Shown here in pieces: positions 4,526-58,925 of a DNA stretch of 64,000 nt (the stretch's first letter is position 1; every line of letters begins with the position of its first letter). The notes under the pieces were generated by a model. It did no database searches. It had not been told where the DNA came from and saw only the letters and a list, made by a program, of their open reading frames with translations. The stretch is taken from positions 194,990,001-195,054,000 of the forward strand of contig OZ024740.1 of NCBI GenBank assembly GCA_964016885.1, in the 5' to 3' direction. A program made the position numbers and the translations under genes. The DNA comes from Eledone cirrhosa. Its lineage: Eukaryota.

Positions 4526-5725
4526 TTATGGAGGATAAGTATCTGAAAGTGTGTTAAGTTTATATGAGCTGGAAAGCAGGTGTGATTTCATGTGTGGGCA
4601 ACTGGTGAAAATTTCTGTCTTTGTGTTTAGGCAGGTCTTTGGTGATTTAAGGTTTTGTAAAATCCAATATTTTTCATTTATGCAGAGCGTGCATTTTCTT
4701 GTTTCTCGTGCATATTCTTTAGATTGGTTCAAAATTGACCAATCCAATTTATATTGGATACCTTGGTCTTTCAAATCCCATATTCTACTAGCCACAGCTG
4801 TTGTAAATCTTTTTTCTGGGTGTCGAAAGAATGCGACATGTGAGTAATAACGCGTTTTGAATTTGTCTTGCGTCATACCCACATATCGTTCACTGGTGGC
4901 TGGTTGGTTGTTGCTGATGGTTGTCACTTTAGCCGCATATACAATGGCTTTGGTGTTGCATTTACCTTGTAATGGGCATTCACTTTTGATTCTACAGGAG
5001 CAATGTTGATGTTCTCTAGGTGATTTTTTGTTGATTATATAAGATTTAATAGGGGGACCGCAGGAGTAGCTAATTTTGACACAGTTTCTGTTAAAGATCT
5101 TATAGTATCTATGTGTTCTAGGGAAATGTTTATCTAAGAGCTCTAGGAATGTTTTGCCTACATTAGTTTTAACTGCTAGAAAATAGGGGGGTGTGAACCA
5201 GATTATTTTTCTTTTCCTGTTATTATGTTTATTAGAGTTAGTATAGTTGGGTATGTATTTAATCAGTTCGCTAAAACCGCTATTTTGGAAGGCTTTATTA
5301 TAGTAGGGGGATGCCTTATTGAAAATAGCTTCTGAGGAAGAGAGGGTGGAGATCCTACGGCTAATATTAGGGATAAGGTTTTTAAAAACTATAGAAGGAT
5401 GGCAAGAGCCTTTATTTATATATTTTAAATTTTCATTAGGTTTATGGTATGGTTTATAAGAAGCAGTAGGCAAATCTAGGTTTATATCTAGGAAATTTAC
5501 ATTAGAAAGGTTAGTGTCAATAGTGATTTTAAGATTAAAACTAGCAAAGGTTTTTATTAGGTCTTTCCTTAATCTATCTAAGTTATGGCCTATGGTAGTA
5601 AGGGAAAGTATTAGACCATCGTCACGATAAAGCCCCAAAATATGATTAGGGAATTTTTCTTTAAATGTGTGTAGGAGGAATAGGCCGACTAAATCACAAA
5701 CATCAGCACTGTCATAAGAGCCCAT
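4526..5725 (-). CDS. Penelope-like RT C-terminal half, Cys-rich linker and GIY-YIG endonuclease (5'-truncated; frame continues upstream toward 5799)
   Basis: MGSYDSADVCDLVG (RT5-like), GLYRDDGL (catalytic DD), VNFLDINL, YHKP, IIWFTPPY, CSCR..CPLQGKC, IVYAAKV..YVGMT..FKTRYYSH (GIY-YIG), CTLCINEK, CPH. Confidence 0.9.
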   Translation of the reverse strand: MGSYDSADVCDLVGLFLLHTFKEKFPNHILGLYRDDGLILSLTTIGHNLDRLRKDLIKTFASFNLKITIDTNLSNVNFLDINLDLPTASYKPYHKPNENLKYINKGSCHPSIVFKNLIPNISRRISTLSSSEAIFNKASPYYNKAFQNSGFSELIKYIPNYTNSNKHNNRKRKIIWFTPPYFLAVKTNVGKTFLELLDKHFPRTHRYYKIFNRNCVKISYSCGPPIKSYIINKKSPREHQHCSCRIKSECPLQGKCNTKAIVYAAKVTTISNNQPATSERYVGMTQDKFKTRYYSHVAFFRHPEKRFTTAVASRIWDLKDQGIQYKLDWSILNQSKEYARETRKCTLCINEKYWILQNLKSPKTCLNTKTEIFTSCPHMKSHLLSSSYKLNTLSDTYPP

Positions 5726-5815
5726 TGAGACATCGAATGGGCTCTCTGGGTTAGATATTTTTACCCAAGTGTCATTATCAGTAAAGAGTAGAGTGTTTCT
5801 ATATATATATATATA

Positions 5816-6063
5816 TATGAATGTATGTATAGTATATTTGGCAATATACTGTATATTTAATTAAAAACATTTAGAAGAACTTTCGCAATGAGTTTTAAAG
5901 TAGTGACTATGTCACTTATTTATTCTCAGCAAAAACAACTGTTGTTTGTTTTTGTCGAGAATAAGTGACATAGTCGCTACTTTAAAACTCGTAGTGAATG
6001 GTCTTCTAAATGTTTTTAATTAAACATACAGTATATTGCCAAATATACTAGACATACATTCAT
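5816..6063. repeat. Imperfect foldback palindrome (~120-bp arms) between TA arrays
   Basis: ATGAATGTATGT-TAGTATATTTGGCAATATACTGTAT... is mirrored by ...ATACAGTATATTGCCAAATATACTAGACATACATTCAT; axis near 5940. Confidence 0.9.
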
Positions 6064-21770: not shown

Positions 21771-24326
21771 ACATATTATAAATATAAATATATAGATATC
21801 TATATATATATATATACATACATATATATATATATATATATCTATATATATATATATAGACTACATGGTTTCACGCAGGAATTCCCCACATCCTTTTCAA
21901 ATGTTTCTTTTAGGGACCTATAAGTTTGTATAGGGACCCTAATCAGTTTTAGGTTCAGTTTTTGTTATTTTTAATAGAGTGGGCGAAAGTTTTCCCTTCG
22001 GTTTTCACCGATGGGTTGTTCGTGATGGTCTCCATTAGTGTTTTGTTTTCAGTGTTTATGTAAGTGTAAGTGTAATTTTCTTGTGTTGGGTTTGTTTTTG
22101 TCTGTAGTTCTTGTGTGTGCTTTCATTTTGTTGTAGGTATTGTTTTCAGGAGGTGGGGGTTTTGTTTGTGATGTTTTTGTTGTTTGTGTTGGTGGTTGTA
22201 TGTTTGTGGTTGTATGTTTGTGGTAGTGTTTGCTGGTTTTTTGTTTTTGTGGTGTCTTTTCTTTCTTTTCGAGCGTTAGGGTTCTCCCTCGTCTTCATTG
22301 GGTGATGTCGAGATAGCCTCATCTGTTGTATCGTCTGTGTGATTGGGGAGGGGTATGTCTTGGGGAGCTGTTGTCTGTATGTGATTTTGCAGTGGTTTTA
22401 GGTGGAGTGGGGTTGGGTGGGACTGTGTTTGCAGTTTGGTTTGTTTTTGTTATTTTTGTGTGTTGTTGTTGTTGTGGTGGTGGTGGTTGTGGTGGTGGTG
22501 GTTGTGTTGTTGTGTTGGGTGTCGCCAGTAGTGCCTTTTCTTTAATGCAGTTAATTGAGGACAGGAAGCCCTCAGGTGACCACTGCTTAAACGCTGGTAA
22601 CATGAATGCTGCCTACCCTCAACAGAAATGTTTATGTAGGAATTTCCATCCAAAGGCACACGTTGTGGTATTCTAGCTATCCGTTCTGGTCTCATTTGGA
22701 CCAGAACTTCTAAGCTTGTACCTTAATTCAACAATATGGTGCCGTCATAATAACAAAGGTACCATTAACAAAGACTTTTACTGGCAGCATAGCAATTAGA
22801 AGGTGGAGTTACTAGTTTATATAAAATGCAATATCTGTTCAAGACAGACTTTAGACAGGTCTATCTTGAGATCTGGAGGCTCATCAGGCCAGTGATTATC
22901 CTAGTTTCCATGGCATGAATAGAATGAGAGTAAAATACTCCCTCCTGGATGCAATCCATTGCAGGGTTAAATGCCTACCTAGTGCTGGTACTTATTTTCA
23001 GCTGAATATACTGCAGCAATGTGAAATGAAGTGTTTTGCTCAAGAACACAACACTCAACCTAGTCTAGGAATCAAACCCACAACATTATGATTCTAAGTC
23101 CAACACCCTTACCACTCATTTTATTTCCTAAACTTTAAAATGCAAGAAATGTGAAAACTTAAACCCACCATACATGCTATCTGTAAGAGATGTGTGTAAG
23201 CTTGTCAGTGCATGTGTACATGTGTACGCCTGCATGTATAAATGTGTGTGTATGTGTAACATCTGCCAAATGCCTGGTTAACCTGAAATATTTAAGTATT
23301 AACAGCATAGGTCATCAACTTTTTTTCACAAAGTTCTTTGAAGATGAAATATTTTGACATGACTTTATACTACACTGAATATAGTAAGACATGTTTCAAT
23401 TTCTCAACTGGAAATAAATACATATTCACTCAAACTATCTTGATAATAATTGCTCTCTTCTTAATTTCTACTACCCCAGCCCATACTTCCATCAACAAGC
23501 CTGCTTATAATCAAAATGGTTTACCATTCATAATTTATTTCAATTCAGCCTTTGCTCCCTTGAGTGTCTGCCTTTCATCATCATGTATTAGAGTCCTAAT
23601 CTTCAAACATCATAAATCTGTTCTGTTTGTTAATGTAGCATGAATCCACTTCCATCCCTTATAATCAAGAGCCATTTCCTATTTCGTGATTTCCAATGAT
23701 TTTCAATAATTTCTTGTGAATTATTACTACTCGTTCTCAGCAACATTTCTCTTATGTGTGGATTATTTCATGCTGTTGTCCCCCACCAACCTTTCTGTAC
23801 ACATTCAACCTCACCTATCTTGACAATCTCCTTCTATTCAATATCAAATGACTTTCTCTCTTAGCTAGCTTTATTCTCTCTCTCTCTTATATATATAGAC
23901 ACACCTGATCAACGAAACAATTGTCAATACTTTAATTAAGCCCTTATTGTACAGCCAACCATGTTACTCTTCTTTCTTTAACTATATATATATATATATA
24001 TATAAACACACACTCACACACACACATGTATATATATATACATTTTAAAGTTGAGACAGTAAACAGAAAACAAAAAAAACAAAAAAATGTGGAAGCGAAG
24101 AGGCAGTACAAATGTTAATATTAGTTTCACGCTTGAGAAACATCAGCTTCCCAACAGTTAAAATATATCCCATTTCTTTGCGTGTGTGGTTAATTGGATA
24201 TGCATGTCATGTGTGTGTATATGTGTATCATCATCATTGTTTAACGTCCATCTTCCATGCTAGCATGGGTTAGACAGTATACATGTATATATATATATCA
24301 GAACTAGGGACTGTATATACATGTAG

Positions 24327-24350
<24 letters not shown>

Positions 24351-24359
<9 letters not shown>

Positions 24360-24771
24360 TAAACAAATAATGAATAAACAATGAAACAGTTCCTTATATT
24401 AAACAAAAAAAGTTCATTATTTAACGATCGTTTCTAGGATATATATGTGTTAGAATTGGCATGCATATTCAACAGATCTATGTACAAAATTATACAAAAT
24501 TATACAAACTATCAAGATTAAATATACATACCAACACATATATACGCCGTCTTCAGAAATTATTTCTGAAGACGGCGTATATATGTGTTGGTATGTATAT
24601 TTAATCTTGATAGTTTGTATAATTTTGTATAATTTTGTACATAGATCTGTTGAATATGCATGCCAATTCTAACACATATATATCCTAGAAACGATCGTTA
24701 AATAATGAACTTTTTTTGTTTAATATAAGGAACTGTTTCATTGTTTATTCATTATTTGTTTAATATTTTAT
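24351..24771. repeat. Perfect palindrome, 210-bp arms, 1-nt spacer at 24561
   Basis: ...CGCCGTCTTCAGAAAT-T-ATTTCTGAAGACGGCG...; no arm mismatch seen by eye out to ATAAAATATT/AATATTTTAT. Confidence 0.95.
24559..24706 (+). ncRNA. Type I hammerhead motif with ~115-nt stem II domain (mirror copy on minus in the left arm)
   Basis: ATTATTT-CTGAAGA...GAAAC-GATC-GTT-AAATAAT (7-bp stem I); stem II helices TATATATGTGTTGG/CTAACACATATATA and GGTATGTATATTTAA/TTGAATATGCATGCC with G-U pairs. Confidence 0.7.
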
Positions 24772-25254
24772 CTTGACTCTGTATACCGTTTATCTTTCAC
24801 CGAAAGTGATTTTTCATTACATCTCTTCTTTCCATGATATCCGGAATACATTGAGTTCTTCATACGGATTGGACACTACCGTATACTCTTGGTAGATTTA
24901 TCTACATATATCATCATTTCATCATCATTTCATTTTACATCCGCTTTTTCCCTGCTTGCAAGGGTGGGATGGGAACTGATGCTGGCTTGATTTCTACAGC
25001 TGGATGCCCTTCCTAACACCAACCTCATTTACAGTGAGTGCTGGGTGCTTTTTTGCCGTGGCACCTCCACGACCACTTTACAGTGGAATGATAGGGACAC
25101 CAGTCCCTATCATCTCATTTCTACAGCTGAGTAAACTGGAGCAATGTGAAATAAAGTGCCTTGCTCAAGGAAACAACACATCACCCGGTCTGAGAATTGA
25201 ACTCACAACCTTTCGATTGCAAGGCCAATGCTCTAACCACTAAGCCATGTGCCT

Positions 25255-25315
<61 letters not shown>

Positions 25316-26914
25316 TGTATGTATGTATGTTCTTCTGGTTTTATAATTTCACAAAGTTTTACCAATAGAGAGAGAGTCGGTTTCTAACAAAGACACAAGA
25401 CTCTCTCATTTGAATTTACACAACATCAACTAGGTAGATATGTATGTCTGCATGTATGCATGTGTAGATATGGATGTTATTGTATGTGTGGATGTGTATG
25501 TTTTGAGTTGTATGTGAGGCATGTGTATATGTTTTGTATCTGTACATGTGTATATGCAGTTATTAGATGCAAAATTTTTGGAATGTTTTACATATTTTTA
25601 CTGTTCCATTAATGGATTGTACTTGTAGTTTCCTAACTAGTTGTGTTCTTTCTGTTCCTGTGAAGCCTATGTATGTATGTATGTGTATATATATATATAT
25701 ACATACATACATATATACATATATATATACATGTATACTGTCTAACCCATGCTAGCATGGAAGATGGACGTTAAACGATGATGATGATACACCATATACA
25801 CACACATGCATATCCAATTAACCACACACGCAAAGAAATGGGATATATTTTAACTGTTGGGAAGCTGATGTTTCTCAAAAGTTGAGTACTTTGAAGAAAT
25901 CCATCAGTGCAAAAAGAGGTTATGGAAAGCATAAACCACAATGAAGGCAACATTTATGAAAAGAAGAAGCTGCTGATGCAAGATTGAGAGTGCTCATTGA
26001 AACTGCAAGATAAAACTCTCTGCTATTGGTTAAGCAATATATACACTTAATCCATTGTTAACTTTTTGTAATAATGAGGCATCTGGTAGTAAATCTCTTC
26101 CAATGAACCCTTTAGATATCAATCTACTGATGACAGTCCCTAGTTCTGATGAAAAACCTCTTGTTTTTACCCTTTCATTATCAAACTCTGGTTTTATGAA
26201 TAAAAACCATCCATTTTAAAAGATTCCTAACTAAATAAAAATGTTCAAATACAAGTTTATCTGAGAACAATATGTGTTTTACTATCTTAGTAATGAAATA
26301 ATTAATAATTCTAGCAATTAAGTCAATCTTTTTCATTAATTAATCCAAATAGAGGGTATTTCATTAGAAATATGGTAACAAAAGAGTCTTTCATAAGTAA
26401 ATTAAAACTGCTCATCATAATTCTATGTAAGAATATTTTTATTTTGTTCTAGGCATCAGCTTAATAATAATTTCTACATTAAGTACAGGGCCGAGGAGGG
26501 GAAAAATTGATTAAATTGACCCAGTTATTCAATGGCACTTTATTTTATCAACACTAGAAGGATGAAAGGCAAAGTTAACACTGGCAGGATTTAAACTCAG
26601 AATGTAAAAAGCCTTAATAATGATAAAGTTATTTTCCTCAATCTCAGTTTATTTTAAAAATTAATCTAAAACCATATATACTTCCCTGGAAGCATGGTAA
26701 CAAAAGGGTTATAAATATGCAGCACATAAAATTAGATCACAACGGGACGCATGTTATGTTAATACTTCTAATAGTAGAGATAGATTTGTGTGTCCATGTC
26801 AGTACTCCTTGACTGCCATCAAACAAGTCTACCTCCAGCATCTTGATCCAATGAGGAAACCTTTATATAGTCACTCAACTTATAAAAAATAGAAAAAAAA
26901 TCTTACTATATTTA

Positions 26915-27098
26915 ATAATTGTATCTACTTTTGGCACAAGGCCAGCAAATACCTAGTACATTACTGGTACTTTATTTTATCAAGCCCGTAAGGCAAAGTT
27001 AACCTCGGCGGGATTTGAACTCAGGTCGTAAAGGGACGGAACTCTTTGCATCAAAGCATGATGTCCGACCCTCTACTGATACGGCCAATCCACCGCCC
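26915..27098 (-). mobile_element. Meta-domain-like tRNA SINE
   Basis: Reverse complement of the 13471 family. Confidence 0.85.
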
Positions 27099-27244
27099 TT
27101 ACTATATTTAATAATAAAAAAAAACACACATTGGGTGTGTGTGCATGGCTAGAATGCTTCTGATCATAGGCCTTTCAGATCTAACTTAACCCTTTAGCAT
27201 TCGCATTAATTTTTAAATGTCATACTTCTCTGTTCGCATTATTT

Positions 27245-27627
27245 TGGTGGATTGGCAGTATCAGTAGAGGGTCGGACGCCATGCTTTGCAGCAAAGAGTT
27301 ACTTCCCTTTACAGACTGAGTTCAAATCCCGCCGAGGTTAACTTTGCCTTTCATCCTTACGGGGTCGACAAAATAAAGTACCAGTAATACACTGGGATAA
27401 TTGCTGGCCTTGTGCCAAAAAGTAGAAAATTATTTTGAATTGGATTGGCAATATCAGTAGAGGGTCGTACGCCATGCTTTGATGCATAGAGTTACAGCCC
27501 ATGCCATTCTGAGTTCAAATCCCGCGGAGGTTAACTTTGCCTTTCATCCTTACGGGGTTGATAAAATAAAGTACCAGTAATGCACTGGGTACTTGCTGGC
27601 CTTGTGCCAAAAGTAGAAACAATTATT
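27245..27627 (+). mobile_element. Two tandem Meta-domain-like SINEs (27245-27434 and 27441-27627)
   Basis: Each has the A/B boxes, central domain and tail seen at 13471. Confidence 0.88.
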
Positions 27628-55990: not shown

Positions 55991-58925
55991 TAATGAAATC
56001 AGTTTCTGTAACTAAATCCAATTCATATATTTTAGAGAAGGAGCAACTATCACAATTTCTTATTTTTTTTATTCCCACTATAAAAATACAGGGACCATTT
56101 TAAATTATATGAAGAAACACATTATTACTGCTAATAGAATTGTTGTTATTGTTTGTTACAGACAATATCTATTTTGTTTTGTGGGAGTAGTTGCTTTGTG
56201 TTTCATAAGAGGCAATATAAAGGGTTGGCTACCCGAAGGGCATGCAGCCATAAAACAAAGCCCCCAAAAGGACTTGCTGTTGAGTTTGAACCTGTCATGG
56301 AGCTTGCAAAGCCAACTGCTTGTTTAGCTGGGAAAATGGCCTTAAAATGCTTGTTGTTGTAGCTGTTTTTGTTCTTTTTGTAATTTATTTGTTCATTTGT
56401 GTTCCAGTCAAGGGGCTGAGGCCATGCTGGGGCAATAATTTATTTTCTTTTATTTAATTAAATGCTTAGAATATCTTAATTTTAATTTTGAGAATGTTTT
56501 GTTTGTTGCACTTGGAAAGTTGGTTGATTCGTTTTGTTTTGATCAGAGTTAAAGTGTTTAAGTTATTCACACCATCTAAACTGAAAACAAATCAATTAAA
56601 GATTAAAGATTTCCACTTAAAATTTAGACTTCATAAACTAAACTATGAACTATCAGAAAGAGAGAGAACAAAACAAAAGATGAGGTTTGTTTCATTTGAA
56701 AACAAAACCAAAAGACAAACAATGAAAGATAAACACCAAGACTACAGTGTTAAAAATCAAATCAAAACAAAAACAATAACAATAAATCAATAAATTAATA
56801 GATAAATAAATAAATAAACAAATGAATATAGAAACACTGCAATATGTCTGTATGTTGGTCCAAATGTGTCTGCAATTATATGAAATAGTTGATAAATCTA
56901 GATTGGAAGTAGAATAAAATTAAAAAGGGGAGGTATGGGAGGATGAAGGTTAAAAACAATGTTTTTGTGATACTTATTATCTGAATGAAGGTGACAGATG
57001 GCTGGTATGTTTAACATACAATGTACATAAACAAACATCAACTAAAATCTGATAACGACAACAACAGGAGCACATAAACTAATATGAACAAGAGATTGTG
57101 ACAACACCGATACCAATATTAACATACTCAACCTGCTAGAATTGAATCACCCTCAAATTACACCCTACCATCATGAAAAAAATGAAGGATGCTTTGGATT
57201 ATTGCAGTCCTTGTTGCACTGTCTCTGAAAACAAAACAGGTTGCCCATAGCTGGCATGTCTTTAACCCTTTTGATACCAAACCACCAGAAACTACCCCTG
57301 GTTCTATGATACTAAGCTGTTTATTTTAAAGTGTTTATATTTATCTAAAAACATTCCATCATAATTTTATATAAGTACTTTTGTTAAGCTATGTTCCAAG
57401 CACAATATAAATGATGAGAAAGCCACTTATATTACTAAACCCCTCTAAATAAGATATGAATGCTTCAAGAAAAGTTATCTTTGTTGCAAGTATTTGGTCA
57501 TGGTTTCAGAATAGCTTCCACTTTTGGAAACTCACAAAAAAGGGTCATAGGCACTGCTTTTTATTCTCTAACAAATCCATAAAAGAGTAGGAAGGGGGGA
57601 TATGAGAACTTTACTGTATACATGTGTACCACCCATGGGCATTCTCTAGTTGTGCAGCAAGTTGTTGAGGTGAGTCAAAATATGATATGGTATTTTGAAA
57701 ATTAGTGTTTTGTTATGCATTGCACTGGTAAATGTGTATTTCTTTGTAGCAAATGAAAGGATGCACCCATATCTGTTTTAAAATAATTTTAACACACTTT
57801 TATATATAAAAGATTAACATTTTTGATAGAGCTCTGTAATGCCTTATTAAGTACTGTGGATTAAAAAGATTGAAAATCACAGTGAAGCCATAGGGAATAC
57901 ATGGTGGATATGCAATCTCTTGGTCATCTATTGTCATTCATTGACCAAAGGTGATACATGTTGCTGGGCAGAGGAATTTCTCTGAGGTCAATGTTTAGGA
58001 TCAGCTCCCAAAGTACATTACTGCTAAGATCTATAGACATGGCAACCATAGATGTGAAGAAACTATAAAATATTTTTAAACTAATATTTAAAAAAAACTT
58101 GACTAGATGAAGAATGTTACTACTACAGTTTTTTGTTATTGTTTTGTCCAATTCAGCTCTGATTGATCAAAATTATAATCAAAGACATTCCTGTGATATC
58201 CTTCACATTTTTTGTATATTGAGGATTAGATTATTTTAATGTGTCTTGTGTTTAATTTTTAAGGAAGGGTGTGATATGATTTGTAGCAACAAGGGCAAGT
58301 CAACTCCCACGTCAGAGGCAAATCTCTACATCTTAGAAATTTGCTTCTATGAAGGTAAGCATAAGGTTACCAGATAGACACAAGTATGTCAGACCCATAT
58401 AAATGTTTGTTTATTTATATTTTTGGATGTATGGCCATTAATTTTGCTGTGTGAAATATTTTCAAATATAATATCATCATCATTTTTACATCCACTTTTC
58501 CATGCTTGCATATATATATGTATATATATATTGATGGATGTATATCTGGAGGTGACTTCGGTTAAAAAAGGTACTCTCACATAAATAGAATATAGACATA
58601 TATATTTTATTATAGAATTAGAAATGTTTCATTATATATATATATATATATATAATGAAACATTTCTAATTCTGTAGAACTAGCCGACCATGTTATTCTT
58701 CACTCTTTCACTACTATTACTCCAAGAATAACCTGCATGAGAATTCTCGCAAACTATGGAAACCTCTTGTTGAGTCAAACAATGCCATATGTTAAAACTA
58801 TCCATAGTACAGAGTACTCACAACCTCTAACTGGATTACCTAAAATGATAACTTGTTATCCCATATATATATCATCATCATCATCATCATTTTACATCCG
58901 ATTTTCCCTGCTTGCAAGGGTGGGA

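What the first reader, a model, noticed from the sequence alone, without database searches (positions are those of the whole stretch)
24351..24910. Perfect 421-bp palindrome folded at the 5' edge of a giant-stem-II hammerhead
Seen: 210-bp arms with a 1-nt spacer; the axis (24561) is 5 nt upstream of CTGAAGA. Each arm therefore encodes the HHR core pointing outward, one per strand. The element continues unpaired to about 24905 and its left end abuts (TA)n. The stem II mismatches are U-G compatible in the ribozyme sense. Established: PLE insertions often carry an inverted partial pseudo-LTR. Inference: cDNA snapped back near the ribozyme and copied itself. A transcript would form a 210-bp dsRNA (ADAR/Dicer substrate) that competes with the ribozyme fold.
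Basis: partly seen in the sequence, partly recalled or inferred. Interest (0 to 1): 0.75.

Follow-up and report, generated by a model that had tools for sequence, protein, structure and literature searches.

The report
Head-to-head Penelope stub, copied twice
The perfect palindrome is real and is one of over a thousand near-identical stubs left by a Penelope-type jumping gene, each likely made when both cut ends of the target DNA copied the same RNA from two fixed start points up to its likely capped front end and the two copies were joined, rather than by one copy folding back at the ribozyme.

Summary
The 421-bp palindrome (210 + 1 + 210) and the long-stem hammerhead motif are there as described. 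It is the shortest insertion form of a young Hydra-type Penelope-like retroelement (6,672-bp unit, 813-aa ORF). The genome holds 1,113 such junctions, against 10 for the control pattern.

Axes cluster as predicted, but at a sharp stop (+1 = 24559, initiator-like, extra G in 14 of 29 informative arms), 140 nt before the predicted ribozyme cut. In 62 of 65 loci one arm ends at +213 and the other at +350; none had two like ends. In dozens of insertions each arm holds sequence the other lacks. Long arms stop in excess at the short arm's start (30, against 12, 11 and 11 elsewhere).

This favours two target-primed cDNAs on one RNA, joined head to head. It disfavours snap-back, the self-priming reading in print. 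The cap, cleavage and double-stranded RNA are untested, as no RNA run was listed. The layout is known. The scan reached a similar reading on other DNA; the collision class is what this family adds.

The parts
24314..24353 (.). (TA)n target microsatellite at the left end
24351..24560 (-). short arm: element +4 to +213 read leftwards; likely the cDNA primed at the +213 site
24557..24565 (.). junction AAATTATTT: long arm from +1, short arm from +4, 2-nt microhomology; this junction type is seen in 6 of 65 loci
24559..24908 (+). long arm: element +1 to +350; +1 is the inferred RNA start (native context TTC/ATTATTT); 2 differences in 350 from the ORF-bearing copy L046
24559..24706 (+). type I hammerhead motif: stem I 24559-24565 with 24700-24706; core CTGAAGA 24566-24572; stem II about 24574-24686 (113 nt); GAAA 24688-24691; palindromic stem III AACGATCGTT; predicted cut after GUU at 24699; C-A mismatch at the 10.1-11.1 position
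   Evidence: cleavage untested
24772..24908 (+). 137-nt one-sided tail between the two fixed 3' ends (+214 to +350)
   Evidence: (TA)n loose ends at both sites in reads
24905..24911 (.). short TA run at the right end; no target-site duplication can be read in a TA repeat

Best explanation
This is the shortest insertion form of a Hydra-type Penelope-like retrotransposon, likely made when both DNA ends at a cut (TA)n repeat primed reverse transcription on the same RNA at two fixed internal sites (+213 and +350), both copies ran to the RNA's likely capped first base (+1), and their ends were joined head to head by short microhomology. Shown: the family, the ORF motifs, the fixed ends, the one-of-each rule, the sharp stop at +1, the extra G, the junction spectrum and the excess of long arms stopping at +201 to +214. 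Inferred: that +1 is the transcription start and the G is the copied cap; that both copies use one RNA, the +350 copy usually displacing the +213 copy and sometimes stalling on it; that host end-joining closes the centre. Every transcript has both priming sites in its first 350 nt, so protein-less stubs would be a built-in by-product. They lack the bases upstream of +1, so most are predicted to be dead ends. The hammerhead sits at the axis because it begins at +1, not because it folds or cuts there.
For: One short and one long end in 62 of 65 palindromic loci by local alignment, 52 of the 55 not chosen for having a long arm; two more show it by BLAST, one was too diverged, and none had two like ends. 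The same rule holds in 12 of 14 resolved kilobase-scale inverted insertions. Arms begin exactly at +1 in 72 of 130, are shorter in 46, longer in 12, and more than 2 nt longer in only 3. G stands at -1 in 14 of 29 informative arms, against 7 G or C of 68 other untemplated bases (Fisher p 8e-5); both arms have it in 3 loci. An extra 5' G is taken as a copied cap for L1 (passages of PMC11702581 and PMC9341517). Junctions: microhomology 33, blunt 6, insert 26 of 65. Long arm stopping at +201 to +214 and joined to a short arm at +1: 30 matches, against 12, 11 and 11 at three control windows (p 1e-4); 21 of the 30 were inspected and all have this layout. The two arms of a locus share their subfamily variants, 0-7 differences apart and up to 28 from the reference. 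In vitro, a Penelope-like protein cuts and extends both strands and starts at two internal RNA sites that bound the tail (PMC11167929, parts 1-2 of 4 read).
Against: No RNA holder was listed, so the start site and cap rest on DNA footprints. No downstream promoter motif sits at +28 to +32 (read from the sequence, motif recalled), and an AATAAA lies 15 nt upstream of +1. One long insertion has two +213 ends and one has a +129 end. The collision excess is under threefold, and AT-rich microhomology could add to it. In vitro both strands used the same start sites (PMC11167929), which does not by itself give a one-of-each rule. A second, smaller axis cluster at +142 to +162 (45 junction matches) is not explained by a cap.
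Confidence: 0.67

Rival explanations
1. Twin priming as above, but on two separate RNA molecules held by an asymmetric protein dimer, one half using +213 and the other +350.
For: The related protein is predicted to dimerise (PMC11167929). Two RNAs avoid the need to displace 213 nt of RNA-DNA hybrid. Arms from one source locus would still be identical.
Against: It gives no reason for long arms to stop at the short arm's priming site (30 against 11-12). Arms share subfamily variants even among young groups. Both arms stop together at +142 to +162 in 45 matches.
Confidence: 0.14
2. Self-priming: one cDNA or an antisense RNA (Arkhipova et al. 2013) folds back at +1 and copies itself, and the endonuclease then trims the copy at +213.
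For: It explains identical arms and the 22 of 65 perfectly palindromic centres. It is the published reading (PMC3846280, passages). Seven junctions centred on the palindromic stem III could be hairpins with a 4-nt loop.
Against: Centres unpaired for 0-2 nt in 46 of 65 cannot be priming loops without specific added bases. Non-overlapping arms occur in 21 inspected collision loci. The +213 arm reaches further 5' than the +350 arm in 6 long insertions, two of which may be one event. The extra G points to a capped sense RNA.
Confidence: 0.09
3. Twin priming, but +1 is not a capped start: it is an end made by 3'-end processing at the upstream AATAAA, or a structural stop at stem I.
For: AATAAA lies 15 nt upstream with a CA at -1/+1 and a GT-rich stretch downstream. 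The second cluster at +151 to +162 may show that the hairpin can stall copying.
Against: It does not predict an extra G. 2,017 places pass through +1 into native upstream sequence. Penelope has an internal promoter in its pseudo-LTR (PMC2377424, section read).
Confidence: 0.08
4. Library or assembly fold-back artefact.
For: This one locus was not bridged by independent reads.
Against: 1,113 junctions against 10; 33 distinct junction sequences in 65 loci; arms diverge from each other in older copies; 11 raw reads from three other samples change strand at +1.
Confidence: 0.01

Closest known systems
Hydra clade of C-terminal-endonuclease Penelope-like elements (Craig et al. 2021, PMC8557442; section 11 and passages read)
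   Same: Single ORF with RT and then a YIG endonuclease; DKT, CxCx5C linker, CxxC and CxH; (TA)n targets; hammerhead in the pseudo-LTR; partial tandems with an inverted 5'-truncated copy.
   Different: Unit of 6.7 kb (described as generally under 3 kb); RWR where RWK is described; 113-nt stem II with a C-A pair at the core; 137-nt tail where 30-40 bp is described.
Inverted pseudo-LTR plus optional tail, with palindromes at the inverted junction (Arkhipova et al. 2013, PMC3846280; passages read)
   Same: Head-to-head layout, one-sided tail, palindromic junction, initiator-like motif in the pseudo-LTR.
   Different: That paper reads the palindromes as self-priming on an antisense template. The counts here favour two primed copies of a capped sense RNA.
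Poseidon element of the green anole in vitro (Frangieh et al. 2024, PMC11167929; parts 1-2 of 4 read)
   Same: Both strands cut and extended; two internal start sites bounding the tail; uncut RNA is the main template.
   Different: Its two sites bound a tail of ordinary length (30-40 bp) and are used alike by both strands. In the parts read it does not treat the inverted junction, its position or a one-of-each rule.
L1 twin priming and the cap-derived 5' G (passages of PMC11702581 and PMC9341517)
   Same: Second DNA end primes internally; microhomology at the internal joint; extra G at full-length 5' ends. The collision class here looks like classic twin priming.
   Different: In L1 the second site varies and the inverted part is not duplicated (recalled). 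Here both sites are fixed and the first 213 nt are usually copied twice.
Minimal hammerheads of Penelope-like elements (Cervera and De la Pena 2014, PMC4209133; parts 1-2 of 4 read)
   Same: Type I layout, palindromic stem III suited to dimers, extra base after A9; opposite-strand pairs 100-700 bp apart were noted in Schistosoma.
   Different: Stem II is about 113 nt, not 7-8 bp, and the highly conserved G10.1-C11.1 pair is missing.

Membership tests
Penelope-like element, endonuclease-positive | single ORF with RT followed by a GIY-YIG endonuclease | tested here: met
   813-aa ORF in L046 with FDID, YRDD and YIG. By motif only: Pfam and PDB searches gave no significant match.
Penelope-like element, endonuclease-positive | tandem or partial-tandem units forming pseudo-LTRs, with an inverted 5'-truncated copy | tested here: met
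   6,672-bp tandem unit and inverted copies
Penelope-like element, endonuclease-positive | tail at one end only | tested here: met
   +214 to +350 on one arm in 62 of 65 loci; 137 nt, longer than the 30-40 bp described
Hydra clade | DKT motif, CxCx5C linker, CxxC and CxH in the endonuclease | tested here: met
   residues 115, 673, 771, 799, against the description
Hydra clade | RWK motif | tested here: inconclusive
   RWR at residues 37-39
Hydra clade | insertion into (TA)n | tested here: met
   TA runs at nearly all ends
Hydra clade | phylogenetic placement of the RT; absence of CCHH | not tested
   no reference Hydra proteins fetched; the paper's supplements were not opened
Type I hammerhead ribozyme | CUGANGA, GAAA, NUH core and three stems | tested here: met
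   the 3' core is nearly invariant in 64 long arms, though most are young copies
Type I hammerhead ribozyme | G10.1-C11.1 pair closing stem II | tested here: not met
   C-A at that position, A129 in 64 of 64; no Rfam match
Type I hammerhead ribozyme | self-cleavage | not testable with these tools
   5 loci have both arms starting at the predicted cut (+142), but the next window has 40, so this is no clean footprint
Non-LTR retrozyme | head-to-tail tandem monomers, each with a hammerhead | tested here: not met
   the stub is head-to-head and single; definition from 10.64898/2026.07.22.740005, part 1 of 5 read

The most novel reading that the evidence does not exclude
Penelope-like elements copy one capped RNA twice, from two fixed sites, into the two ends of a double-strand cut, and the reverse transcriptase strips the first copy off the RNA as it goes. 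Inverted repeats, tails and about a thousand protein-less palindromes are then one mechanism. Changes present in the RNA, possibly A-to-I edits in the giant stem II, are frozen into both arms, which makes these stubs a fossil record of the template RNA.
Probability: 0.45. Interest if true: 0.72.

Novelty: new variant of a known kind. Interest (0 to 1): 0.5.

Why it matters
The papers read call the origin of tandem and inverted Penelope structures undefined (PMC8557442) or ascribe it to self-priming on antisense RNA (PMC3846280). This young, very abundant family gives hard counts and a 350-nt template with both start sites, so the question can be put to the published in vitro assay directly. 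The single locus is ordinary: one of more than a thousand. The stubs also scatter perfect hairpin-forming DNA through a 3-Gb genome, which would matter for double-stranded RNA load wherever they are read through.

Tried and rejected
Expression: no RNA holder listed, so start site, editing and small RNAs were not tested.

Locus-level read support: RAD depth was zero over unique flank 24145-24195 and the TA run was skipped; no verdict.

Family labels: Rfam at gathering score, Pfam and PDB sequences gave nothing useful.

Ribozyme cut as the main axis: rejected, 5 loci at +142 against 1,113 near +1.

A clean in vivo cleavage footprint: looked promising against a control of 0, but that probe occurs in only 16 of 64 arms, and a better control at +151 to +162 gave 40. 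Downgraded to inconclusive. The control used the same weak probe and was left out of the collision test.

Structure at the two priming sites: the fold of +151 to +421 is no better than shuffles (z -0.3).

Covariation in stem II: 10 of 48 pairs have more than one pair type and only 1 changes on both sides, in 13 haplotypes; weak.

Self-propagation of stubs as a non-autonomous family: not tested. Source copies are plentiful (1,207 matches to an RT motif).

A host gene around the locus: a six-frame look showed mostly transposon fragments; not settled.

Full report
1. Observation. The palindrome is exact: arms 24351-24560 and 24562-24771, one T between. The right arm continues to 24908 and both ends meet TA repeats. 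The + strand from 24559 reads as a type I hammerhead: a 7-bp stem I, CUGAAGA, a 113-nt stem II (fold z -4.9), GAAA, a self-complementary stem III and a predicted cut after 24699. The pair next to the core is C-A, with A in 64 of 64 long arms, where G-C is described as highly conserved (PMC4209133, parts 1-2 of 4 read). Rfam does not recognise it. Positions below count from +1 = 24559.

2. The family. All 40 scored genome matches to 24562-24910 were 99-100% identical, and a 30-mer from the core has 1,178 exact matches. Upstream-intact copies belong to a 6,672-bp tandem unit with an 813-aa ORF starting at +502. The ORF has FDID and YRDD, then YIG, with DKT, CxCx5C, CxxC and CxH. These match the Hydra clade description (PMC8557442 section 11), except RWR for RWK. 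No tree was built, and Pfam and PDB gave no significant match. An RT motif has 1,207 matches and the native upstream junction has 2,017. The window copy differs from the ORF-bearing copy L046 at 2 of 350 bases.

3. The palindrome is a mass product. A pattern for head-to-head cores within 19 nt gave 1,113 matches, against 10 for the control. Of the first 30 loci, 11 had an inverted arm with its axis near +1. By coordinates alone, the first 100 matches gave 16 pairs with gaps of 8-37 nt, 15 with gaps of 1.8-14 kb and none between (paired by hand). Raw RAD reads of three other samples show 11 reads changing strand at +1, and 364-635 reads per run with loose TA ends at +213 and at +350. This locus itself was not bridged.

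4. Where the arms begin. I parsed 65 palindromic loci: 10 chosen for a full long arm and 55 by junction or coordinates. Arms begin exactly at +1 in 72 of 130, are trimmed in 46, extend further in 12, and by more than 2 nt in 3. The native context is TTC/ATTATTT, like an initiator (consensus recalled). Where an arm starts at +1 and untemplated bases follow, the next base is G in 14 of 29, against 7 G or C in 68 other untemplated bases (p 8e-5). Five ambiguous junctions were left out of that count. Three loci have the G on both arms. For L1 such a G is read as the copied cap (passages), and Drosophila Penelope has an internal promoter in its pseudo-LTR (PMC2377424). So +1 is likely the capped start. 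The hammerhead begins there, and its cut lies 140 nt away.

5. Where the arms end. One arm ends at +213 and the other at +350 in 62 of 65 loci. Two others show this by BLAST despite internal duplications, one was too diverged, and none had two like ends. Kilobase-scale inverted insertions obey the rule in 12 of 14 resolved cases; one has two +213 ends, one has a +129 end, and a fifteenth was unresolved. Both ends share 2-3 nt with (TA)n. This matches the two internal start sites that bound the tail in vitro (PMC11167929), but the tail here is 137 nt.

6. Snap-back or two primed copies. Junctions show microhomology in 33, blunt joins in 6 and inserts in 26 of 65, and the centre is unpaired for 0-2 nt in 46. 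The commonest junction (10 of 65) is what two ends at +1 give by annealing through AT. In 6 long insertions the +213 arm reaches further 5' than the +350 arm, so neither is a copy of the other; two of the six may be one event. A long arm that stops at +201 to +214 and joins a short arm at +1 has 30 matches, against 12, 11 and 11 at windows ending at +130, +237 and +274 (p 1e-4). A fourth control gave 0 but used a probe present in only 16 of 64 arms and was dropped. All 21 of the 30 inspected have non-overlapping arms with the usual ends. This is what a collision of two copies on one RNA would leave. Arms of a locus share subfamily variants and drift apart with age. The published reading is self-priming on an antisense template (PMC3846280), and these counts go against it.

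7. Results that complicate the picture. A second axis cluster lies just 3' of the cut: 5 loci with both arms at +142, 7 on stem III and 40 matches at +151 to +162, of which 20 inspected keep one short and one long end. The window at +114 to +125 has 3. Cut and trimmed RNA, or a stall at the foot of the hairpin, would both fit, so in vivo cleavage is not shown. An AATAAA 15 nt upstream of +1 leaves 3'-end processing as a minor rival. Rare changes shared by both arms are A-to-G in 9 of 21 (6 of 17 distinct), against 6 of 57 one-arm changes (p 0.003 and 0.025), mostly in helices. Editing of the template RNA or selection for pairing could each explain this; it is a lead only.

8. Double-stranded RNA. 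A read-through transcript would fold as the long hairpin (-323.6 against -43.1 kcal/mol). RNAs starting at +1 on either arm point outward and would not pair. No RNA data were available to test editing or small RNAs.

9. Novelty. The layout is described (PMC8557442, PMC3846280, PMC4209133). Nine searches found no paper that ties the axis to the capped start, states a one-of-each rule or reports collision products. The library lacks most subscription journals, older Penelope reviews were not read, and supplements of PMC8557442 that may hold this family were not opened. I wrote down the twin-priming and cap reading before the first look-up. Earlier AI notes on other DNA reach the same reading; they are unchecked and are not independent support. 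Verdict: a real feature and an ordinary locus of a known kind, with family evidence that makes an open mechanistic question testable.

Noticed in passing
window 24133-24351 and 25672-25878: An older inverted duplication of local, otherwise unique DNA (few differences over the first 165 nt) brackets the insertion. Its left copy is joined through a TCTCAA overlap to the 3' stub (24042-24138, - strand) of another high-copy hammerhead-bearing repeat family, which suggests target DNA was copied in during an earlier insertion.
   Followed up: partly
L180-L199, L142-L151: Second axis cluster at +142 to +162, just 3' of the predicted ribozyme cut, mostly in older subfamilies; cut RNA or a stall at the hairpin foot.
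   Followed up: partly
L152, L154, L157: Long arm starting at +142 joined to a short arm at +1 through the stem I complement, so the ribozyme's own stem I serves as junction microhomology.
   Followed up: partly
L006, L022, L033, L042, L088: The junction with a single C-G pair between two full arms recreates TCATT at +1 on one strand, so some stubs may regain an initiator.
   Followed up: no
stem II and stem I of 64 palindromic loci: A-to-G excess among rare changes shared by both arms; possibly editing of the template RNA.
   Followed up: partly
L046:3283-7011: The unit carries about 3.7 kb of microsatellite-rich 3' sequence after the ORF, unusual for a clade described as under 3 kb.
   Followed up: no
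window 4529-5860 (-) and 2393 (+): A related Penelope-type RT fragment and a second hammerhead-like core lie in the same window.
   Followed up: no
window 58614-58673 and 26990-27350: A 60-bp perfect palindrome centred on a TA run, and a 105-nt, 90% inverted repeat within a 193-bp tandem.
   Followed up: no
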